NCBI GenBank assembly: GCA_048937405.1
Contig: JBHLNF010000001.1
Coordinates: 720,785 to 784,784 of the forward strand
Source of the DNA: Promethearchaeota archaeon
Lineage (GTDB): Archaea; Asgardarchaeota; Lokiarchaeia; Sigyniarchaeales; SOKP01
Direction of reading: 5' to 3'
Length of the DNA: 64,000 nt
The notes beneath the pieces were generated by a model. That model saw only the letters and a list, made by a program, of their open reading frames with translations, did no database searches and was not told the origin of the DNA. A program made the position numbers and the translations under genes. Position 1 is the first letter of the stretch, and every line of letters begins with the position of its first letter. Positions 6,522-26,605 of this stretch are shown one piece after another.

Positions 6522-7544
6522 TTATATAATTTTTGAACATAAATTTTTTAATAACTCCTCCACTTTCTTTGAAAATCCACTTACAATATCATCAACATCA
6601 ATTATGGAATCGATTAATCCACATGTCTGTCCTACTGGTACGGCCCCATTAACTACATCCCCTTTCGTATAAACAATTTCATAAGCACTCAGCTCTTTTA
6701 AGTATTCATTTATATCATAAGCTAATTCTTGGGATATTTTTTCTTCTTTAGTTATAACTTTCCCATGTTCTAAACAAAACTTATTTTTTAATAATCTAAT
6801 TGGACCAAATCCACCAGTAGTAAGCATTGTATCGTGTGCTGAAGCTGGAGCAATAAGATCTTTATATTTTTGATCGAACTCACACTCATTTGAGGCAATA
6901 AAACGAGTTCCCATCGCAACGGCATCAGCACCCATTGCTAATCCTGCAGCAATTCCTTCAGGTGTAGCAAAACCTCCACACGCAATAAGATATTTATCAG
7001 GGTATTTTTGGGCTACTTGTTGAACTAAGACTAATGTGGTTACACCTTCATAACTTTGATGCCCACCACCTTCAGTTCCCGTTGCTACAATCCCATCACA
7101 ACCAGATTCTATAATTTTATCAACTAACCATAATGCTGGACCAACATGAAAATGGTATAAATCTGGAGCTTTCTCCTTCCATATTTTTCCTACCATACGG
7201 GGACTTCCAGCGCTAGTTAAACCGTAAATTAATTGTTCTCTAAGTTTTGGGTTTTCTTTTCGCCACTGTGGAATTTTTCTTATTAAAATTTTGTGATCTG
7301 TTTGGATTCGAGCAACACGTACATTTATACCAAAAGGCTTATCTGTATGTTCAACAACATAATCTAATTGTTTCTTAAAATCTTTAATCGAATTTTTTCC
7401 TTGTAATGTTGCATGACTTACCACCCCTAATCCACCTGCTTCAGAAACGGCAACGGCTAATTTTGTTGTGTAAAATGGCCCCATTGGAGCACTTATTATT
7501 GGATATTTTATTCCAAAATCCTCAGTTATTCTTGTTTTAATCAA
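6522..7544 (-). CDS. Nitronate monooxygenase / FabK-like FMN oxidoreductase
   Basis: YPIISAPM, AVSEAGGLG, GTEGGGH, ACGG, GADAVAMGTRF, GQTCGLI. TTG start. Confidence 0.88.
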   Translation of the reverse strand: MIKTRITEDFGIKYPIISAPMGPFYTTKLAVAVSEAGGLGVVSHATLQGKNSIKDFKKQLDYVVEHTDKPFGINVRVARIQTDHKILIRKIPQWRKENPKLREQLIYGLTSAGSPRMVGKIWKEKAPDLYHFHVGPALWLVDKIIESGCDGIVATGTEGGGHQSYEGVTTLVLVQQVAQKYPDKYLIACGGFATPEGIAAGLAMGADAVAMGTRFIASNECEFDQKYKDLIAPASAHDTMLTTGGFGPIRLLKNKFCLEHGKVITKEEKISQELAYDINEYLKELSAYEIVYTKGDVVNGAVPVGQTCGLIDSIIDVDDIVSGFSKKVEELLKNLCSKII

Positions 7545-7822
7545 GTTTTATGACACTAGAAAAATTGAATGATCTATAGTTTATTCTTGCTTTTTAGAAA
7601 TAAAAAAGTTAACGATATCAAACAAATGCCAATCAATTCTTGAAACAAATAACAAAAACTTTTTTAGGTTCTTTTCTATAAATAATATAATAAATTGATG
7701 TAAACATAATAAGTCTGTCTTTGATAAAAAGAACTCAATAAATGTGAATCTGGTATGGATTTTAATAGAAAAAATGTTCTTGACCAATATATTTCTATAT
7801 TGAGTTTCTTCATTTTAAATGA

Positions 7823-7848
7823 ATTTAATAACAATTTTGTTATTAAAT
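7823..7848. promoter_or_regulatory. Perfect 12-bp inverted repeat overlapping a TATA-like element upstream of the his leader (candidate operator)
   Basis: ATTTAATAACAA-tt-TTGTTATTAAAT. It contains TTTAATAA about 30 nt upstream of the GTG at 7857. Confidence 0.5.
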
Positions 7849-7856
7849 CGAATGAT

Positions 7857-7919
7857 GTGAGAGTTGATTGCTTAAAAAACATTAATTCATACTTGCATCA
7901 TTGGCTACATCATGAATAA
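7857..7919 (+). CDS. Putative His-rich leader peptide of the his operon (MRVDCLKNINSYLHHWLHHE; the frame extends to an ATG at 7755)
   Basis: CAT CAT TGG CTA CAT CAT GAA TAA gives 4 His in the last 7 sense codons, 81 nt upstream of hisIE. The start codon is uncertain (GTG 7857, TTG 7800 or ATG 7755). Confidence 0.7.
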   Translation: MRVDCLKNINSYLHHWLHHE

Positions 7920-7990
7920 TTCCGATGAATTAGTATAATATTTTATCATTTATTCATCGGAATAAAATCGAACTAAATTATTTTAGTTTG
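7919..7990 (+). promoter_or_regulatory. his leader RNA structures (attenuator-like)
   Basis: Perfect 12-bp stem ATTCCGATGAAT (7919-7930) / ATTCATCGGAAT (7952-7963) starting on the leader stop codon. A second stem CGAACTAAA-ttat-TTTAGTTTG (7969-7990) abuts the GGGGGA SD. Confidence 0.65.
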
Positions 7991-8000
7991 GGGGATAATT

Positions 8001-8909
8001 ATGATAATATTAAAAATTAATATGAAGGATATGGAAACGGTTGGAGGCTTAAAAGAGTTTATAGATGGAGTATTTACAAAACGAAATTGGGATTTGTTTA
8101 TAACTCTTGTTCTTGAAGCTAATAAGGAAAGCCTTATTACACTGATAAAGGATGATATGCTTAAGATGGTTTCTAATAAGGTTAAAATATGGATAAATTC
8201 AGAAAATAATCAAAAAGAATTAATTAATTTAATAACAGAAAAGGGAATGACGATATACAATTCAGAATCTCATAAAAATGATGAGGTTTTAAGTTTGGAT
8301 TCAATAAAAGATTATTCATCAATAGATAATATTTTGTTTAAGATTTTAGATTTTGATAAAGCTAATGGACTGATACCAACAATTGTACAAGACCTTAATG
8401 ACAATGTACTAATGCTTGCATATTCATCAAAAGAGTCCTTGAAGGTTACAATCAAATATAGAAAATCAACTTATTTTAGCAGATCGAGGAATCGCCTATG
8501 GACTAAAGGTGAAGAATCAGGAAATTATCAAATTGTAAAGAGCATTCTTTACGATTGTGATGCGGATACTTTATTATTTAGGGTAAAACAGAAAGGTTTT
8601 GCTTGTCATAAAGGTACTTATTCTTGTTTTCAGGATCGGAAATTTTCTATAGGATATCTCTATGATTTAATAGTTGATAGAATCAAAAATTATAGTGTAA
8701 ATGAATCCTATAGTAAAAGACTTGCTGAGGATAATGAATTATTAATGTCTAAAATTGAGGAAGAGTGTAACGAAGTGATAAATTACACCGATAGGGATAA
8801 CTTAATTTGGGAAATTGCAGATATTGCATATTTTATTCTTGTATTAATGGCTACCAAAAAAATTAAACCTGAAGAAATAATAAATGAATTAAAGAGGAGG
8901 AACAAATGA
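8001..8909 (+). CDS. hisIE: Bifunctional phosphoribosyl-AMP cyclohydrolase / phosphoribosyl-ATP pyrophosphatase with a ~105-aa N-terminal extension
   Basis: HisI motifs GLIPTIVQD, SRSRNRLWTKGEESG, DCDADTLL, ACHKGTYSCF. HisE motifs SYSKRL, KIEEE, EIAD. Confidence 0.92.
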   Translation: MIILKINMKDMETVGGLKEFIDGVFTKRNWDLFITLVLEANKESLITLIKDDMLKMVSNKVKIWINSENNQKELINLITEKGMTIYNSESHKNDEVLSLDSIKDYSSIDNILFKILDFDKANGLIPTIVQDLNDNVLMLAYSSKESLKVTIKYRKSTYFSRSRNRLWTKGEESGNYQIVKSILYDCDADTLLFRVKQKGFACHKGTYSCFQDRKFSIGYLYDLIVDRIKNYSVNESYSKRLAEDNELLMSKIEEECNEVINYTDRDNLIWEIADIAYFILVLMATKKIKPEEIINELKRRNK

Positions 8910-9925
8910 AAGAAGATCAACAAAATTTATTTCCAAAATATAGATCTCGTCAAGTGAGATTAGCACTTCCTTCGAAAGGAAGAATGGAAGTTGAAACTCA
9001 AGAATTTTTAAGAAATTGCGGCTTTAATATACAAAGAAATAATAGACAATATATTGGAACAATAAAAGGACCTATAAATCTTCAATTGGTCTATCAACGA
9101 CAAGTAGATATTGTTAGGGGCATATTGAATGGGTCTTTAGAAATGGGTATTGTCGGTTATGATCTAGTACATGAATATTCATCTTTAGATGAACACGAGT
9201 TAATCATTATGCACAATGCATTAAACTTTGGAAAATGCAGCCTTGAAATAGCAATTCCTGAAGGATGGTCAGAAAAATCAATTGAAGAGATTAAACAGAA
9301 GAAGAAGTCAATTCGAGTTGCGACTAAATTTGCAAAACTCACAGATCAATTTCTCAAATCATTTGATATTAACTATGAGTTAATTCAGGGTAATGGTTCT
9401 CTTGAGGTGTATCCTGAATTAGGGTATAGTGATATTATAGTCGATCTTGTATCAACAGGTCAAACTTTAAAGGATAATCGATTAAAAAGGATTAAAGGTG
9501 GGCAAATAATGACTTCTGAGGCGGTACTTATTGGAAATCGAACAGCTTTAAAAAATGAGACTGTTTTAAAAGTTGCTCGTCAGGTGATTGAGTTTATTGA
9601 AGCTACTTTGAGAGCTCAAAATTTTGTTTCAATTTTTGTAAACATGAGAGGAGAAAGCCCAGAGGATATTGCTAATAATATTTTTTCTAAAGAGGGTCTT
9701 GAAGGGCTTCAAGGGCCTACAATCTCACCCGTCTTTACAAAAAGTAGAGAAAAAATGTATGCCAGTCATGTCATTGTTGAGAAAGAGAAATTACAACAAG
9801 CAATAAGAATTTTAAGAGAAATTGGGGGTAGTGGTGTGGTTGTTGCACCTACACTTTATATTTTTGAAGAAGAACCATTAAGGTATATTAAATTATTAAA
9901 AAATTTGGGGATTTATGATGATTAA
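8906..9925 (+). CDS. hisG: ATP phosphoribosyltransferase, long form
   Basis: RLALPSKGRM, GIVGYD, RVATKF, IIVDLVSTGQTLKDNRL, C-terminal GLQGPTISPV. Confidence 0.95.
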   Translation: MKEDQQNLFPKYRSRQVRLALPSKGRMEVETQEFLRNCGFNIQRNNRQYIGTIKGPINLQLVYQRQVDIVRGILNGSLEMGIVGYDLVHEYSSLDEHELIIMHNALNFGKCSLEIAIPEGWSEKSIEEIKQKKKSIRVATKFAKLTDQFLKSFDINYELIQGNGSLEVYPELGYSDIIVDLVSTGQTLKDNRLKRIKGGQIMTSEAVLIGNRTALKNETVLKVARQVIEFIEATLRAQNFVSIFVNMRGESPEDIANNIFSKEGLEGLQGPTISPVFTKSREKMYASHVIVEKEKLQQAIRILREIGGSGVVVAPTLYIFEEEPLRYIKLLKNLGIYDD

Positions 9926-11249
9926 AACTTATACAGTAGATGAGGCAAGAAAATCAATATTAAAAAGAGAACTTAGTTCTTCAAATGGAAATCTCAGAAG
10001 TGAAGGTGTTACTCCAGAGGAAAGTGTAAAGGCTATTGTAAAAGATGTAAAAGAAAGAAAAGATGCTGCACTTAAAGATTGGACATTAAGGTTTGATAAA
10101 GTAGAAATTGATCAATTTGAATTATTAGATGTTGATTTTGAAAAATATCTGAGCTCTATCAATCCTAAGTTAAGAGAAGCTTTAGAAATAGCATGCGACA
10201 GAATTTATAATTTTCATGAATCTCAACCTATCATCTCTTGGATGAATCACAAACTTGGAGGTCAAATAGGTCAAATAATAAAACCTATTGAAACAATAGG
10301 GATATATATTCCGGGAGGAATAGCTCCTCTGTTTTCCTCAATTTTAATGGCAGCCATACCAGCCATTGTAGCAGGTGTTAAAAATATTATATTCAGTTCT
10401 CCTCCCAATAAGCAAGGTAATTTACCAAACATTATCCTCGCAACTTTTGGGTTAATCAAGAAGTATGATATTAATATGAGAATTTTTAGAATAGGTGGAG
10501 CTCAAGCTATTGCAGCTATGGCATTTGGAACGGAACAAGTTCCCAGAGTAGATAAAATCGTAGGACCTGGAAATATCTATGTAAATTTAGCAAAGAAAGA
10601 AGTTTATGGAATAGTAGGAATTGATGGGATATATGGACCTACTGAAGCATTGGTAATTGCTGATGAAACAGCAAATCCCTCATTAGTTGCTTCAGATCTA
10701 TTAGCACAGGCAGAACATGATATTTTAGCCATTCCAATCTTAGTTACTTCTTCTGAAAATCTAATTTCATCTGTGAAAAAAGAGTTGGAAAGGCAAATTA
10801 TAACTCTGAAAGGAAAAGCTATTATTAAAGAATCTATTCAAAGCAATGGTGGTATTATTTTAACAAATTCAATAGAACAATCGATATTAATTTCAAATGA
10901 ATTTGCACCCGAACATTTATCTCTTATGATTAAAGAGCCTATGAAAGTTTTAGACAAAATAGAAAATGCAGGAGGAATTTTTATTGGAGAAAATTCCTTT
11001 GAAGTTTTAGGTGACTATATTGCAGGACCTAGTCATGTGATGCCGACAAATGGCACAGCTCGTTTTTCATCTGCTTTATCAGTTTATGATTTTATTAAAA
11101 GGATTAGTTATGTTTATTTAAATGAAGAAACATCTTTTAACTTATCTAAACATGCTGAAATAATAGCAAATTCTGAAAATTTAACAGGACATGCAAAAGC
11201 AGCGGCTTTAAGAACAACTCTAAATAAAAATACAAAGGAGGGGAGTTAA
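9915..11249 (+). CDS. hisD: Histidinol dehydrogenase
   Basis: GIYIPGG, GGAQAIAAMAFGT, GPGNIYV, DLLAQAEHD, APEHL, LGDYIAGPSHVMPT. Confidence 0.97.
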   Translation: MMIKTYTVDEARKSILKRELSSSNGNLRSEGVTPEESVKAIVKDVKERKDAALKDWTLRFDKVEIDQFELLDVDFEKYLSSINPKLREALEIACDRIYNFHESQPIISWMNHKLGGQIGQIIKPIETIGIYIPGGIAPLFSSILMAAIPAIVAGVKNIIFSSPPNKQGNLPNIILATFGLIKKYDINMRIFRIGGAQAIAAMAFGTEQVPRVDKIVGPGNIYVNLAKKEVYGIVGIDGIYGPTEALVIADETANPSLVASDLLAQAEHDILAIPILVTSSENLISSVKKELERQIITLKGKAIIKESIQSNGGIILTNSIEQSILISNEFAPEHLSLMIKEPMKVLDKIENAGGIFIGENSFEVLGDYIAGPSHVMPTNGTARFSSALSVYDFIKRISYVYLNEETSFNLSKHAEIIANSENLTGHAKAAALRTTLNKNTKEGS

Positions 11250-12383
11250 TTGGATAAAAAAAATTATATTATTAAACCATCGAAAATCATTCGGAAGTTC
11301 TTAGATTCACAGAATTATGATTCACTTTCATATTTAGATAAATCAAGTCAGGAAAATGAGATGATTTTTTTAGATAAAAATGAAAGTCCTTTTGTACCGC
11401 CTTTAGGGGATTTAGTTAATTTAAAGTCATTAAATATCTTAAAAAATTATCCAGATTTGAATGCTAATACATTTTTGGATAAACTATCAAAGGATCTTAA
11501 AATTCCTATTTCATATTTTTTAGCAGGAACAGGCTCTAATGAAATAATAGGTCTGATCATTAAGATCTATGCCACTCCTAAAACTAAAATTTTAAGCATT
11601 AATCCAACCTTTTCAATGTATCAATTCTTTGCTAATATAAATGGTGCAAAATATGAATCGTTTCCCTTAAGATTATTAATAAATAAAGCAACGGGAATTG
11701 CGGAATATGATTTAGATCAATCTGGTTTTATGAAAAGGGCTAAATCATCAAATATTATAATCTTAGCGCGACCAAATAATCCAGATGGGATTATAATCTC
11801 TCTTGATTTTATTAAACAACTTCTAAAATTGAAAAAGTTAGTAATTATTGATGAAGCTTATATTGATTTCAGTGATGGTCCGAGTTTAATAGATTTCATC
11901 AAGTCTTATGATAATTTAATTATTTCTCGGTCATTTAGTAAGTCTTACTCTCTTGCAGGATTAAGATTAGGGTATACAATATCAGATCCTTCTATTAATG
12001 AGATATTAATTCGTATAAAAAGCCCCTTCAATGTGAATAATCTAGCTTTGCAGTATGGTTTATTATTACTAGATAAGAAGGATGAGATTTCAGCAAATAT
12101 TAATAAAATTAAATCAATTCGACAAGAATTTTTTAAGGATCTTCTTAGTTTAAGAGAAAAAAATAAAACTTTTTATATACATCCTAGTCAAACGAATTTT
12201 ATTTTATTAAGATTTGAATCTTCTAAAATATCAGATTCAGTTTATCAATACTTATTAAAAAATAAAATTAAAGTAAGAAATTATGGAGAAGAACTTTCAA
12301 ATTGTTTAAGATTTTCAATAGGTACAAGATTACAAATGAAAAAGGTAATAGAAATATTGAAATCATATTTTGAGGAGAATTAA
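11250..12383 (+). CDS. hisC: Histidinol-phosphate aminotransferase
   Basis: LDKNESP, GSNE, PNNPDG, IDEAY, RSFSKSYSLAGLRLGY. TTG start with a GGAGG SD. Confidence 0.92.
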   Translation: MDKKNYIIKPSKIIRKFLDSQNYDSLSYLDKSSQENEMIFLDKNESPFVPPLGDLVNLKSLNILKNYPDLNANTFLDKLSKDLKIPISYFLAGTGSNEIIGLIIKIYATPKTKILSINPTFSMYQFFANINGAKYESFPLRLLINKATGIAEYDLDQSGFMKRAKSSNIIILARPNNPDGIIISLDFIKQLLKLKKLVIIDEAYIDFSDGPSLIDFIKSYDNLIISRSFSKSYSLAGLRLGYTISDPSINEILIRIKSPFNVNNLALQYGLLLLDKKDEISANINKIKSIRQEFFKDLLSLREKNKTFYIHPSQTNFILLRFESSKISDSVYQYLLKNKIKVRNYGEELSNCLRFSIGTRLQMKKVIEILKSYFEEN

Positions 12384-12384
12384 T

Positions 12385-12990
12385 ATGGAAAGAAAAGCAA
12401 AATTAGAAAGAAAAACAAAAGAGACCAGTATTGAAATCGAAATGAATATTGATGGAAGTGGAGATACTAAGATTAATACCTCCATTGGTTTTTTTGATCA
12501 TCTTCTTACCCAGATTGCTGTTCATGGATCATTTGATATGAAAATTCTTGCAGAGGGTGATCTTAATGTTGATAATCATCATTTAATTGAGGATACTTCT
12601 ATTGTTTTAGGTAAAGTTTTCAACAAGGCTTTGGGAAATAAAATTGGCATTACACGAGTTGGACATTGCTTTTTTCCCATGGATGAGAGCCTTGCGTTTG
12701 TTGCTATAGATATTTCTTCAAGACCATTTTTTAAAAAAGAAATTAATTGGACAAATCCATTTTTAGGATCTAAGGAGGATAATTTAATCCCAGTCGATTT
12801 AATAGAGCATTTTTTATATACATTTTCAATTAATGCCCAAATAACACTTCATGTTAGAGTCCTCTATGGTCAAAATAACCATCATATTGCTGAAGCGATA
12901 TTTAAAGCTCTGGGCAAAGCATTGGATTATAGCTCTAGAATTGATTCAAAGGGGAATCGAAAACTTCCTTCAAGTAAAGGAATATTATAA
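12385..12990 (+). CDS. hisB: Imidazoleglycerol-phosphate dehydratase (monofunctional)
   Basis: RKTKET, FFDHLL, DNHHLIED, PMDESL, NNHHIAEAIFKA, PSSKG. Start placed at ATG 12385, after a GAGGAG SD. Confidence 0.95.
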   Translation: MERKAKLERKTKETSIEIEMNIDGSGDTKINTSIGFFDHLLTQIAVHGSFDMKILAEGDLNVDNHHLIEDTSIVLGKVFNKALGNKIGITRVGHCFFPMDESLAFVAIDISSRPFFKKEINWTNPFLGSKEDNLIPVDLIEHFLYTFSINAQITLHVRVLYGQNNHHIAEAIFKALGKALDYSSRIDSKGNRKLPSSKGIL

Positions 12991-13003
12991 GTTGGTTTTT
13001 AAC

Positions 13004-13597
13004 ATGATTACTATAATAGATTATGGAAGTGGCAATCTTCGGTCGATTCAAAAAAGTGTCCAAAGATTTTATCCGAAGGTAATTATTTCAAGAGATCTTG
13101 CTTTAATAGAGAAATCTAAAGGTTTAATTCTTCCTGGAGTAGGCGCATTTGGTGATGCTGTTAAAGAACTCGAACAATATGGGTTATTCTACCCATTAAA
13201 AGATATTATTGAAACAGTTCCAACAATGGGAATTTGCTTAGGCATGCAGCTATTATTTTCAAATTCTGAAGAATCTCCAGATGTTAACGGATTAGATATC
13301 ATCCCCGGAAAGGTGACTAAATTAGACTCATATCAATCAATCAGAATCCCTCATACTGGATGGAATAGACTAATTCCATCATCGAAACCATATTTTTATG
13401 GCTATGTATACTTTAATCATTCATATTATTGTGACCCTGATGATAAAAATTATATAATCTCTTATGTAAATCATGGGATTTCAATTCCAGTTATAATCTT
13501 AAAGGATCACATAATTGCTGCTCAATTTCATCCTGAGAAAAGTCAAAATGCTGGTGATAGAATTATCAATTATTTCATTTCCTTAATAAAGAGGTGA
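13004..13597 (+). CDS. hisH: Imidazole glycerol phosphate synthase, glutaminase subunit
   Basis: IIDYGSGNLRS, LPGVGAF, GICLGMQ, QFHPEKS. Start placed at ATG 13004. Confidence 0.95.
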   Translation: MITIIDYGSGNLRSIQKSVQRFYPKVIISRDLALIEKSKGLILPGVGAFGDAVKELEQYGLFYPLKDIIETVPTMGICLGMQLLFSNSEESPDVNGLDIIPGKVTKLDSYQSIRIPHTGWNRLIPSSKPYFYGYVYFNHSYYCDPDDKNYIISYVNHGISIPVIILKDHIIAAQFHPEKSQNAGDRIINYFISLIKR

Positions 13598-13604
13598 CTA
13601 TATT

Positions 13605-15107
13605 ATGAAAAAAATAATACCAGCTATGGATCTTTTAGATGGTAACGTGGTTAGGTTATATAAAGGGGATTTTGATAGAATTGATAATTATTATAAAAGA
13701 CCTGTTGAACTTCTTAAGCAATTTTTTAATCAAGGGATTGAGCAAATACACGTTATAAATCTAAATGGAGCAAAATCAGGTGAATTTGAGAATGGACCTA
13801 ATTATGATGTTATTCGATCTTTAATTCAAGAAAGTAAAAAATGGGGTTCTAAAATTCAATTAGGAGGGGGTATTAGAACAGAAAGAACTATTAGAGAATT
13901 ACTTGATCTAGGACTTTATAAGGTTATTATAGGTACTATTACTATTGAAAATCCAACTCTTTTTAGACATTTAATGAAAAAATACAAAGATGATATAATA
14001 GTTGCACTGGATGTTCTTAATGGTAATTTGAGAATAAAGGGTTGGCTCGAAGATTCTAATATCAATTTAGAATCTCATTTTAAAACTTTGGAAGAACAAG
14101 GAGTTTCAAACTTTATAATAACTGATGTTTCACGAGACGGAACGTTAGGAGGTCCTAATTTTCAGATCTACAAGAAAATCTCAAATCTCAGATATCCTGA
14201 CACTAGAATAATCGCTTCTGGAGGTATAAGTAATTTAAATGATATTAACCAAGTTCTAAATTATGCAGATGGTGTAATTATCGGAAAAGCTTATTATAGC
14301 AATAAAATAAGCAATAAAAATCTAAGAGATTTAACAAAGAAGTATGACCCCACTAATTTAGCAAAAAGAATAGTGCCATGCCTTGATATTAAAGATGGAA
14401 GAGTAGTAAAGGGTGTTCAATATATCAACTTACGAGATAGTGGAGATCCTGTAGAACTATCTAGATTCTATAATACAGAAGGCGCGGATGAATTAGTATT
14501 CCTAGACATTTCTGCAACTTTAGAAAAACGATCAATATTGTTTCAAACTTTAAGAAAAGTTTCTGAACAGGTATATATTCCTTTTACAGTAGGAGGTGGT
14601 ATTAGAAATTTGAATGATATAACAAATATCATTAATGCAGGGGCAGAAAAAGTAAGTATTAACACTGCTGCTGTAGATAATCCCAAAGTTATCACTGAAG
14701 GTGCTCAAAAGTTTGGAAGTCAGTCTATTGTGTGTGCAATTGATGTAAAAAAAAAAGGAGATGCTTGGGAAGTATATATAAAGGCGGGTACTGAATCAAC
14801 AGGATTAGATGCAATAGAATGGGCAAAAGAAGTTGTTGAAAGGGGAGCAGGGGAACTACTTGTTACTAGTATGGATCGAGATGGTACTCAAATAGGCTAC
14901 GACTTTAAATTAATTCAAAGTCTCACTAATGTGATATCTGTACCATTAATTGCTTCAGGTGGAGCAGGTAATTATGAACATTTTTATCAAGCTATTAAAG
15001 CTGGGGCAGAGGCGGTCTTAGCAGCATCTTTATTCCATACAAAGACAATAAAAATTAAGGATTTAAAATCTTATCTTCATAAGAGAGATATAAAAGTTAG
15101 ATTTTAG
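13605..15107 (+). CDS. hisA/hisF: HisA-HisF fusion protein
   Basis: N-terminal half: [43 protein letters not shown]-terminal half from ~14358: [37 protein letters not shown]. Confidence 0.95.
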
Positions 15108-25121: not shown

Positions 25122-26363
25122 TCAGGTTCTATAAGATCCATTAATTCGAACATAATCATAACTTAAATCACATCCCCATGCGATTGCTTCACTTTCTCCA
25201 TCCTTTAAAAGCAATTCTACAATAATTTCATTTTCTTTTAATATTTTTAGTGCTAAATCTTCATCAAATTGTAAAGCACTTCCATCTTTCATAACCTCGA
25301 TTGAATTAACATCATTCAAAAATTTTATTGATACTTTTAATGGATCAAATTTTGCTCCAGAGTAGCCCATTGCAGCAATAATCCTACCCCAATTTGCGTC
25401 TTCTCCAAAAAAGGCTGTCTTTACTAAATTTGAGGTTATTACGGATTTACTTAAGATTTTTGCATCTTGTTTTGATGCAGCTCCTTTGACGTGAACTGCA
25501 ATAAATTTGCTAGCTCCTTCTCCATCTCTTACAATCTCTTGAGCTAAATATAAATTTACATAGTGAAGTGCGTTTTTAAAAATAAAATATTCTTCACTTT
25601 CATCAAAAATTTCTGAGTTATTACCCATTCCATTAGCCAAAAGAATTACTGAATCACTGGTACTTGTATCACCATCTACAGAGATCATATTATATGATTC
25701 TTCAATACTTTCTCTAAACGCTTTTTCTAATAATTCTTTTGAAATATTAATATCAGTTGAAATAAATGAAAGCATAGTAGCCATATTTGGATGAATCATT
25801 CCAGAACCCTTCGCCATCCCTCCTATTCTAATTTTCTTATTATCAATAATAAATTCAACCGAGATCTCTTTAGGATGTGTATCTGTCGTCATAACTGCTT
25901 CAGCAGCTAATCTTGCATCTTTATCTCTACTCCCTATGTTTTTATACGTATTTTTAATACCCTCAATTATAATTTCAATTGGAAGAGGCTTTCCAATAAC
26001 TCCTGTAGAAGCAACAATTACTTGATTTTTCTTTATTCCTAAACAAGAGGCTAACTCAGCTGCCATCATTTCATTATGTTTAATTCCCATTTCTCCTGTA
26101 CAAACATTCGCATTTCCACTATTAACGACTATGCCTTGTATCAAATTGTGATTTTGAATAAGATTTTGATTCCATAATACAGAAGGAGCTTTTACAATAT
26201 TTGTAGTAAAAACCCCTACTGCTTTAGCCGGAACTTCACTATATACTATAGCTAGGTCTTTCTTGCATTCTTTAATCCCTATATGGCAACCAGTAGCATG
26301 AAATCCTTTTGGACTTGTAATTCCTCCTTTTAATTTTGTTATATCAATATTTTTTTTTTCCAT
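25122..26363 (-). CDS. argJ: Ornithine acetyltransferase / N-acetylglutamate synthase
   Basis: NSGNAN, STGVIG, MTTDT, KGSGMIHPNMATML (autoproteolysis Thr), DGEGA, NWGRI, WGCDLSYDYVRINGSYRT. Confidence 0.97.
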   Translation of the reverse strand: MEKKNIDITKLKGGITSPKGFHATGCHIGIKECKKDLAIVYSEVPAKAVGVFTTNIVKAPSVLWNQNLIQNHNLIQGIVVNSGNANVCTGEMGIKHNEMMAAELASCLGIKKNQVIVASTGVIGKPLPIEIIIEGIKNTYKNIGSRDKDARLAAEAVMTTDTHPKEISVEFIIDNKKIRIGGMAKGSGMIHPNMATMLSFISTDINISKELLEKAFRESIEESYNMISVDGDTSTSDSVILLANGMGNNSEIFDESEEYFIFKNALHYVNLYLAQEIVRDGEGASKFIAVHVKGAASKQDAKILSKSVITSNLVKTAFFGEDANWGRIIAAMGYSGAKFDPLKVSIKFLNDVNSIEVMKDGSALQFDEDLALKILKENEIIVELLLKDGESEAIAWGCDLSYDYVRINGSYRT

Positions 26364-26509: not shown

Positions 26510-26605
26510 TTAAAGACGGCGACGTGCCGAGTATAGATTGCGTAGTGCTTTTTGAAATTGTTTTCCTACAATTTCGTTATTCATATAAGAATCAAATAAA
26601 ATCAT
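26510..26605 (-). CDS. Putative Arg-rich leader peptide of the argJBDCG operon (MILFDSYMNNEIVGKQFQKALRNLYSARRRL; alternative start at 26584)
   Basis: ATG preceded by GGTG at 8 nt. The ORF ends GCA CGT CGC CGT CTT TAA, and all four Arg codons are CGY. It lies 146 nt upstream of argJ. Confidence 0.78.
   Translation of the reverse strand: MILFDSYMNNEIVGKQFQKALRNLYSARRRL

What the first reader, a model, noticed from the sequence alone, without database searches (positions are those of the whole stretch)
7755..7919. His-rich leader ORF upstream of the his operon
The plus-strand frame ends TTG CAT CAT TGG CTA CAT CAT GAA TAA (LHHWLHHE*) 81 nt before hisIE. All four His codons of the 54-codon frame from ATG 7755 lie in its last seven sense codons. 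Possible starts are ATG 7755, TTG 7800 and GTG 7857. GTG 7857 lies about 30 nt downstream of a TATA-like TTTAATAA and would fit a leaderless transcript. The Trp codon between the His pairs might add a second input (speculative). The ORF track misses this ORF.
Basis: partly seen in the sequence, partly recalled or inferred. Interest (0 to 1): 0.88.

Follow-up and report, generated by a model that had tools for sequence, protein, structure and literature searches.

The report
Histidine-sensing leader peptide, Asgard archaeon
A small, conserved upstream reading frame that ends in a cluster of histidine codons and runs straight into conserved RNA hairpins precedes the histidine-synthesis operon of this Asgard (Loki-type) archaeon; it has the hallmarks of the ribosome-based amino-acid gauges known from bacteria, which I found no paper describing in archaea.

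Summary
The ORF 7755-7919 (+) ends HHWLHHE-stop, 81 nt before hisIE, the first gene of a seven-gene his operon. It is not chance. The same frame, with a conserved start codon, an SD-like motif and 4-6 His codons in its last 5-9 codons, stands before hisIE in all 13 of 134 family genomes that carry this hisIE type, and in 6 metagenome contigs. Three further relatives have variant leaders, one with eight consecutive His codons. Across the 13 species the frame has 0 stops, against 51 and 103 in the other two frames. Its substitutions are spread evenly over codon positions, so translation is conserved but the peptide is not. Five RNA helices are conserved. One holds the first His pair, and one (H1) begins inside the stop codon. 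No intrinsic terminator and no clear SD-masking alternative was found, so the output step is unresolved. I favour this model: H1 folds only when ribosomes stall before the stop, and that keeps the operon on. The GTG 7857 leaderless start and the Trp "second input" are not supported. Rfam's His_leader and T-box models do not match. This scan has already noted similar leaders in other Asgard genomes. No paper on this in archaea was found.

The parts
7657..7667 (+). Conserved upstream motif (AAC, T6, AG), about 10 nt before a TATA-like box at 7677-7684. It may be a regulator site or part of the promoter.
   Evidence: Invariant in the 5- and 12-species alignments and also present in G047. It is not the general promoter word of this genome. 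Its function was not tested.
7733..7805 (+). Helix P0: 7733-7740 pairs with 7798-7805. It encloses the leader's SD-like motif (7744-7749) and its start codon.
   Evidence: Predicted in every species' minimum-energy fold. Duplex z-scores run from -1.4 to -5.2 in 12 of 13 species. 95% of cells are paired, against 12-41% with slid partners, but the helix is almost invariant, so there is no covariation.
7755..7919 (+). Leader ORF of 54 codons. His codons are at 7896-7901 and 7908-7913, and the stop is at 7917-7919.
   Evidence: The start and an SD-like motif are conserved in 13 of 13 genomes. The frame has 0 stops, against 51 and 103 in the other frames. Indels are multiples of three. Substitutions are even over codon positions.
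7824..7847 (+). Hairpin P2 inside the ORF: 7824-7832 pairs with 7839-7847.
   Evidence: 93.9% of cells paired, and 2 pairs with changes on both sides, including C-G to G-C in G109. Present in all minimum-energy folds.
7851..7902 (+). Helix P1: 7851-7860 pairs with 7893-7902, which is the codon before the first His pair plus that pair.
   Evidence: 87.5% of cells paired. The flanking pairs covary: A-U in 5 versus G-C in 4, and A-U in 3 versus C-G in 3. Slid controls give 26-54%. Duplexes appear in each species. The G047 variant keeps an 8-bp version.
7917..7964 (+). Hairpin H1: 12 perfect bp (7919-7930 with 7952-7963), extended in relatives to the whole stop codon, with a loop of about 21 nt.
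   Evidence: Fold z-score -3.4. RNAalifold and a covariance model both recover it. 96% of cells are paired, and 4 pairs have changes on both sides. H1 plus H2 show 18 G-U cells against 1 A-C cell, so this is RNA of the + strand.
7970..7989 (+). Hairpin H2: 7970-7977 pairs with 7982-7989. It ends directly at the hisIE Shine-Dalgarno.
   Evidence: 100% of cells paired, with one A-U to G-C double change in 3 species.
7990..8003 (+). hisIE ribosome-binding site: a G5 run at 7990-7994 and the ATG at 8001.
   Evidence: Conserved in all relatives. GGAGG- and GGTGA-type motifs peak 1-20 nt before starts in this genome.
8001..15107 (+). The his operon: hisIE, hisG, hisD, hisC, hisB, hisH and a hisA-hisF fusion. 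Most stop and start codons overlap or abut.
   Evidence: ORF list and Pfam.

Best explanation
The ORF 7755-7919 is a translated leader peptide gene, analogous to hisL. Its only conserved coding content is a cluster of His codons at its 3' end, and it serves as a ribosome-read gauge of charged tRNA-His for the his operon.

Shown here:
- The frame, its start and its His cluster are under selection, while the peptide sequence is not.
- The transcript folds into five conserved helices: P0, P2, P1, H1 and H2.
- P1 holds the first His pair.
- H1 starts inside the stop codon.
- H2 ends at the hisIE SD.

Inferred mechanism: a ribosome that passes the His codons and reaches the stop covers the 5' arm of H1. 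H1 then cannot fold while the polymerase makes its 3' arm. A ribosome held up at hungry His codons leaves that arm free, so H1 and then H2 fold. I propose that the folded spacer is the ON state. It leaves almost no naked RNA between leader and hisIE, which protects against factor-dependent termination or cleavage (for example by aCPSF1/FttA) and keeps the SD free. The unfolded spacer is the OFF state. Expression would then spread down the operon through the overlapping stop and start codons.

My odds: about 0.8 that the ORF is a His-sensing regulatory leader, and about 0.3 for this particular output step.
For: - Position and chance.
- Organism: an Asgard (Promethearchaeota) archaeon, from the record titles of the nearest relatives.
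- Distribution: exactly one covariance-model hit in each of 13 of 134 family genomes. These are exactly the 13 that carry the 302-aa hisIE type.
- Start and His cluster: a conserved start and SD-like motif, an ORF of 36-54 codons, and 4-6 His codons in the last 5-9 codons.
- Open frame: 0 stops in the leader frame against 51 and 103 in the others.
- Substitutions: roughly equal over codon positions (for example 6:5:4), about 4 non-synonymous per synonymous, while hisIE shows a third-position excess.
- Variant leaders: G047 has eight consecutive His codons mixing CAT and CAC. G137 and G078 are further variants. The amino acid or tRNA identity is kept, not the RNA string.
- Metagenomes: six contigs carry the leader.
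- Helices: H1 and H2 are 97.5% paired with 5 doubly changed pairs (1 of 500 shuffles reach this) and slid controls of 21-56%. P1 and P2 are 90.6% paired on a plain MAFFT alignment.
- Strand: 18 G-U cells against 1 A-C cell in H1 plus H2.
- Geometry: H1 starts at the stop codon in both the 302-aa type and the longer type, although the His codons sit 0-10 codons before the stop.
- Factor: an aCPSF1/FttA ortholog is present (882.8 bits against a cut-off of 580).
Against: - No expression data could be obtained: no TSS, no 3' ends, no response to histidine.
- The spacer has no oligo-T run longer than T4, whereas T6 or longer follows 34% of gene ends in this genome. The terminator scan found none. 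Classical intrinsic termination is therefore not supported.
- Folds constrained for ribosome position change neither H2 nor hisIE SD accessibility consistently.
- No conserved strong alternative partner for the H1 3' arm was found.
- The proposed role of a termination or cleavage factor is inference only.
- All carriers are close kin (two genera plus a few others), so the counts are not independent.
- P0 is invariant, so it may be a DNA-level signal rather than an RNA helix.
Confidence: 0.6

Rival explanations
1. The sensor is the same but the logic is opposite, and the output is purely translational, as in ermC or the mycobacterial Cys attenuators. A ribosome stalled on the last His codons holds H1 partly open. 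This exposes single-stranded RNA as a standby platform, or frees a masked site, and so raises initiation at hisIE.
For: In the 302-aa type the last His codons lie 1-3 codons before the stop. A ribosome there would reach 5-7 bp into H1 (geometry). The hisIE SD sits directly behind H2. A published terminator-less precedent exists in bacteria (10.1101/834739).
Against: In G137 and G078 the His codons lie 6-10 codons before the stop, while H1 still starts at the stop, so a stalled ribosome would not touch it. Constrained folds show no consistent gain in SD accessibility. The SD is already largely unpaired in all states.
Confidence: 0.15
2. This is an RNA-only cis-regulatory element (binding a protein, a ligand or a tRNA), and the open frame is a by-product of the conserved structure.
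For: Five conserved helices cover most of the 350 nt. The conserved stretches of the peptide coincide with helix arms, and the peptide itself evolves neutrally.
Against: The leader frame has 0 stops in 649 codons, against 51 and 103 in the other frames. The start codon and SD-like motif are conserved. Indels are multiples of three. The His cluster is always in that frame. CAT/CAC synonymous mixing keeps His in the variants. There is no Rfam match, T-box included.
Confidence: 0.1
3. The H1 arms are a DNA palindrome for a transcription factor that flanks a TATA-like hisIE promoter in the 'loop'. The upstream ORF would then be a separate matter.
For: The H1 loop is AT-rich and TATA-like, and lies 56-68 nt before the hisIE ATG, a usual distance in this genome. 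Repressors that flank the TATA box are common in archaea (my own knowledge).
Against: Departures from Watson-Crick pairing in H1 and H2 are 18 G-U against 1 A-C, which fits RNA of the + strand and not DNA symmetry. One pair shows the stepwise path G-C, G-U, A-U. G109 and G142 keep the hairpin with different arm sequences.
Confidence: 0.05
4. The ORF encodes a functional small protein with a metal-binding His-rich tail.
For: It has a conserved open frame of 36-54 codons with a C-terminal HHxxHH-like motif.
Against: There is no third-position excess, and non-synonymous to synonymous changes are about 4:1, as expected without protein-level selection, in contrast to the neighbouring hisIE. Length and sequence vary freely outside the helix arms.
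Confidence: 0.04

Closest known systems
Enterobacterial his operon leader (hisL; Rfam His_leader RF00514), a ribosome-mediated transcription attenuator
   Same: A short translated ORF lies directly upstream of the his operon on the same strand, with clustered His codons (4-8 here, 7 in E. coli by my own knowledge). The His codons lie within a helix. Only the act of translation appears to be under selection.
   Different: The host is an archaeon. The ORF is longer (36-54 codons) and the His cluster sits at its very end. No intrinsic terminator (hairpin plus U-run) is present. There is no sequence or structure match to RF00514. No conserved mutually exclusive pairing was found.
Mycobacterial polycysteine short-ORF attenuators (Canestrari et al., bioRxiv 10.1101/834739)
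   Same: Cognate-codon-rich upstream ORFs act without a terminator, and ribosome position decides an RNA structure next to the downstream gene's ribosome-binding site (abstract).
   Different: There, stalled ribosomes block a duplex that sequesters the RBS. Here the hisIE SD is not sequestered in any modelled state. Those ORFs are leaderless, while this one has an SD-like motif and a 5' UTR helix.
Factor-dependent attenuation gated by a leader ribosome (E. coli tnaC with Rho; my own knowledge)
   Same: A ribosome at or near the leader stop codon decides whether the RNA just downstream is open to a termination factor. No intrinsic terminator is needed.
   Different: Archaea lack Rho. The candidate factor, aCPSF1/FttA, is present but its role here is untested. 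The signal is tRNA charging, not a free amino acid sensed in the exit tunnel.
T-box riboswitches of his genes in Firmicutes and Actinobacteria (PMC9413887)
   Same: Both are cis-acting RNA in front of his genes that would report tRNA-His charging.
   Different: There is no T-box match. The signal here is an open, start-codon-bearing frame with several His codons, not one specifier codon in a loop.

Membership tests
Leader-peptide (ribosome-mediated) attenuators as a class | A short ORF with its own start signal, upstream of and co-oriented with the operon for the cognate amino acid | tested here: met
   The start and an SD-like motif are conserved in 13 of 13 genomes.
Leader-peptide (ribosome-mediated) attenuators as a class | A cluster of codons for the regulating amino acid, conserved among relatives | tested here: met
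   4-6 His codons in the last 5-9 codons in 13 genomes. Variants have 8, 4 and 4 His. Six metagenome contigs carry the cluster.
Leader-peptide (ribosome-mediated) attenuators as a class | The frame is kept open while the peptide sequence is free to vary | tested here: met
   0 stops against 51 and 103 in the other frames. Substitutions are even over codon positions.
Leader-peptide (ribosome-mediated) attenuators as a class | Mutually exclusive RNA structures selected by ribosome position | tested here: inconclusive
   Conserved helices P1, H1 and H2 are shown. H1 starts in the stop codon, so ribosome position must affect it. No conserved alternative partner was found.
Leader-peptide (ribosome-mediated) attenuators as a class | An intrinsic terminator (or another defined output element) between leader and first gene | tested here: not met
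   No terminator-like site. The longest T run is 4, whereas gene ends in this genome are enriched for T6 or longer.
Leader-peptide (ribosome-mediated) attenuators as a class | Operon expression responds to the amino acid through the leader codons | not testable with these tools
   No cultured carrier is known to me.
Rfam His_leader (RF00514) | Match to the family covariance model | tested here: not met
   No hit at the gathering score in the window. None up to E = 10 in 7400-8200.
T-box leader (Rfam RF00230) | Match to the family covariance model | tested here: not met
Translational attenuators (ermC type, mycobacterial Cys sORFs) | The downstream RBS is sequestered in a structure that a stalled ribosome relieves | tested here: not met
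   The probability that the SD and ATG are unpaired is about the same with no ribosome, a ribosome at the His codons, or a ribosome at the stop, across 13 species. The duplex between the H1 3' arm and the SD is weak and not significant.

The most novel reading that the evidence does not exclude
Ribosome-mediated amino-acid attenuation is native to Asgard archaea and works without an intrinsic terminator. A hairpin that starts in the leader's stop codon is allowed to fold only when the ribosome lags at hungry His codons. The folded spacer shields the nascent RNA from a factor such as aCPSF1/FttA. This would imply tight, regulatory transcription-translation coupling in the closest prokaryotic relatives of eukaryotes.
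Probability: 0.3. Interest if true: 0.9.

Novelty: new variant of a known kind. Interest (0 to 1): 0.8.

Why it matters
Leader-peptide attenuation is a textbook example of regulation that depends on ribosomes translating an RNA while it is still being made. To my knowledge, and in six full-text searches, it has been described only in bacteria. A conserved, codon-specific leader before an archaeal his operon suggests that the same sensing principle operates in Archaea, and in the Asgard lineage in particular.

Archaeal polymerases terminate differently from bacterial ones, and no terminator is present here. The output step must therefore differ from the bacterial model, which makes this a tractable entry point to how translation talks to transcription or RNA stability in these organisms. 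It also shows that such leaders are missed by gene callers and by Rfam.

Tried and rejected
- Intrinsic terminator in the spacer: none found.
- SD masking controlled by ribosome position: no consistent effect in constrained partition-function folds of 13 species.
- Conserved alternative helices (a dot-plot of paired columns on 11 species): this gave only H1, H2, P2 and short AU-only matches. That pairing is absent in the G138, G139 and G120 group, so I treat it as chance.
- H1 3' arm against the downstream region: the best duplex falls on the SD in 10 of 13 species, but at -6 to -9 kcal/mol with z-scores of -1.6 to +0.6.
- Stop-codon region as an anti-SD: read by eye, 8 of 9 bases pair in the window but only 5 bp in most relatives, and it is always outcompeted by H1.
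- GTG 7857 as a leaderless start, and Trp as a second signal: rejected on conservation.
- Class-wide search for five His codons followed by a stop: 26 hits, of which only the G047 one precedes his genes. The rest are His tails of long proteins or frames with no gene behind them.
- Other hits of the genome-wide leader filter (Ile, Tyr, Met, Val, Gly, Ser): none lies before an amino-acid biosynthesis gene.
- Trp-rich short-frame scan: too noisy to use. The trp genes sit at a contig edge.
- hisIE N-terminal extension as a decayed HisA: no profile similarity. No Atlas lead.
- A third hisIE type (about 403 aa; G118, G113, G020): no His-rich upstream frame seen.

Full report
OBSERVATION

The window is AT-rich, about 29% G+C. 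Reading 7400-8400 and translating 7755-7919 confirms every factual point of the finding:
- The ORF has 54 codons and starts at ATG 7755.
- Its last eight sense codons are L-H-H-W-L-H-H-E, followed by TAA at 7917-7919.
- The four His codons (7896-7901 and 7908-7913, all CAT) are the only ones in the frame.
- 81 nt separate the stop from the ATG of the next gene at 8001.

Pfam identifies that gene as hisIE. It is followed by hisG, hisD, hisC, hisB, hisH and a hisA-hisF fusion up to 15107, mostly with overlapping or abutting stop and start codons. The upstream gene (6522-7544) is divergent. The record titles of the nearest relatives name an Asgard archaeon, 'Promethearchaeota archaeon'. The genome is 4.47 Mb in 29 contigs.

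IS IT MORE THAN CHANCE?

In all six frames of the genome there are 261 places with at least 4 His in 7 codons. Only 66 of them lie near the stop of a short frame. One of these falling within 100 nt upstream of the his operon on the right strand has a probability of roughly 7e-4.

A second, independent filter asked for a codon cluster near the stop, a stem of at least 9 bp starting at the stop, and a gene within 200 nt. It returned 94 frames, nearly all Leu, Ile or Phe noise as expected at this base composition. The single His hit was this ORF, and the Arg-Arg-Arg hit lies before argJ. Ten other hits that I annotated are not before amino-acid genes.

CONSERVATION

A BLAST of 7650-8003 against the 134 genomes of the family found the region in relatives. 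A covariance model built from the His codons through the hisIE ATG found exactly one site in each of 13 genomes, from two genera. A protein search shows that exactly these 13 carry the 302-residue hisIE form with a roughly 110-residue N-terminal extension. Co-occurrence is therefore 13 of 13.

In all 13 genomes:
- A start codon (ATG in 11, TTG in 2) stands at the homologous place, 5-8 nt after a GTGA-like motif. This fits the GGTGA and GGAGG motifs that peak before starts in this genome.
- The ORF has 36-54 codons.
- 4-6 His codons lie in the last 5-9 codons.
- The distance from the stop to hisIE is 81-87 nt. It is 75 nt in G142 after correcting its ATG.

Across the 13 species the leader frame has 0 stops in 649 codons, while the other two frames have 51 and 103. 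Indels inside the ORF (12, 6, 9 and 42 nt) are multiples of three.

Between close pairs, substitutions fall equally on the three codon positions (6:5:4, 7:7:8, 6:5:6), with about four non-synonymous changes per synonymous one. The adjacent hisIE shows the usual third-position excess, for example 25:25:54. The frame and its His cluster are therefore kept while the peptide is not, which is the signature of a regulatory leader and not of a functional small protein.

Six metagenome contigs from several samples carry the same arrangement.

Three genomes with a longer hisIE form have variant leaders:
- G047 ends in eight consecutive His codons that mix CAT and CAC.
- G137 has HHLHH followed by five more codons.
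- G078 has four His in nine codons.

The synonymous mixing shows that His codons are conserved, not an RNA string. A third hisIE form showed no such frame.

RNA ANATOMY

Every species' minimum-energy fold shows the same five helices.

- H1 is a 12-bp perfect stem in the window (7919-7930 with 7952-7963). In most relatives it extends over the whole stop codon.
- H2 (7970-7977 with 7982-7989) ends at the G5 Shine-Dalgarno of hisIE.
- On the model-fitted alignment of 13 sequences, 97.5% of H1 and H2 cells pair. Five pairs have changes on both sides (1 of 500 shuffles reach this). Sliding the partners drops pairing to 21-56%. G109 and G142 keep H1 with different arm sequences.
- Departures from Watson-Crick pairing are 18 G-U against 1 A-C. 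This fits RNA of the + strand and argues against a DNA palindrome.
- P2 (7824-7832 with 7839-7847) and P1 (7851-7860 with 7893-7902) were tested on a plain MAFFT alignment. 90.6% of cells pair, against 26-54% with slid partners. Eleven cells have double changes (0 of 500 shuffles reach this), including A-U to G-C at both ends of P1 and C-G to G-C in P2.
- P1 contains the first His pair.
- The conserved 'peptide' stretches (I-L-S, N-N, V-I-K-S, N-D-V) coincide with the helix arms.
- P0 (7733-7740 with 7798-7805) encloses the leader's SD and start. It is 95% paired but invariant, so it is unproven as RNA.

No Rfam family, including His_leader and T-box, matches the region.

HOW IT MAY WORK

The sensing step follows from established knowledge of leader peptides: translation speed over a run of cognate codons reports the charging of that tRNA. 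The output step is not settled.

- There is no intrinsic terminator. The scan finds none. The spacer's longest T run is 4, whereas in this genome T6 or longer occurs within 80 nt after 34% of gene ends and in only 8% of internal stretches.
- Partition-function folds with the ribosome footprint masked at the first His codon, at the last His codon or at the stop do not change H2 or the accessibility of the hisIE SD in any consistent way.
- A search for conserved alternative pairings gave nothing convincing.

One feature is constant. H1 begins at the stop codon in both hisIE types, while the His codons lie 0 to 10 codons upstream. Only a ribosome that has got past the His codons can therefore cover the 5' arm of H1. 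A ribosome held at hungry codons leaves it free.

I therefore favour a model in which folded H1 and H2 are the ON state. With both folded, the spacer has almost no naked RNA and the SD is free. A ribosome arriving at the stop in step with the polymerase prevents H1 from folding. This exposes about 45 nt of unstructured RNA to a termination or cleavage factor. An aCPSF1/FttA ortholog is encoded in the genome.

This resembles Rho-dependent leader control in bacteria in logic, but it is inference. I give it about 0.3. The reverse logic, in which a stalled ribosome opens H1 and helps initiation, fits the window but not the longer-type variants.

COMPARISON AND NOVELTY

The element works like the enterobacterial his leader at the sensing step. 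It is not a member of Rfam His_leader, lacks the terminator, sits in an archaeon and has a longer ORF with the codon cluster at its end. The nearest published terminator-less analogue that I read is the mycobacterial polycysteine short ORFs.

Six full-text searches found no paper on leader-peptide attenuation in archaea or Asgard archaea. The library does not cover subscription journals, so this is not proof of absence.

Earlier notes of this scan report similar His, Trp, Arg and Leu leaders in other Asgard genomes, and an Arg leader in this same window. Apart from reading the Arg locus I did not test them.

VERDICT

- The interpretation as a His leader is supported.
- The proposed leaderless GTG start and the Trp input are not supported.
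- This is a new variant of a known kind, of high interest, with the output mechanism open.

Noticed in passing
window 26510-26605 (- strand), argJ start near 26362: A 24-codon frame ends in three Arg codons, a Leu codon and a stop. A long hairpin starts 6 nt after the stop, and its 3' arm carries T6, T5 and T5 runs. argJ follows 146 nt later. A TATA-like stretch lies between the hairpin and argJ, so it is uncertain whether they share one transcript.
   Followed up: partly
window 7657-7667 and 7677-7684: An 11-nt motif (AAC, T6, AG) is invariant in all carriers, G047 included. It stands about 10 nt before a TATA-like box and is not the genome's general promoter word. It may be a site for a his-specific regulator.
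   Followed up: partly
window 8001-8330: hisIE carries a roughly 110-residue N-terminal extension with no Pfam, Atlas or HisA-profile match. It is found only in the leader-bearing genomes. A longer version, with about 90-100 extra residues, occurs in G137, G078 and G047.
   Followed up: partly
L075:964-1290 (G047): This variant leader ends in eight consecutive His codons. Those codons can pair with a complementary stretch right after the stop, and a P1-like 8-bp helix lies upstream. The layout is closer to the classical bacterial one.
   Followed up: partly
window 13605-15107: hisA and hisF are fused in one 500-residue frame, with two His_biosynth domains.
   Followed up: no
window 7711-7722 and the same place in relatives: A small hairpin lies just upstream of P0. 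Its sequence differs between species (for example in G018, G001 and G075), which suggests this stretch is already part of the transcript.
   Followed up: no
L076 and L077 (G041, G043): In another genus of the family, hisIE is fused behind a hisA-like domain in a 420-residue frame inside the operon, after hisF. The family thus has at least four hisI gene layouts.
   Followed up: no
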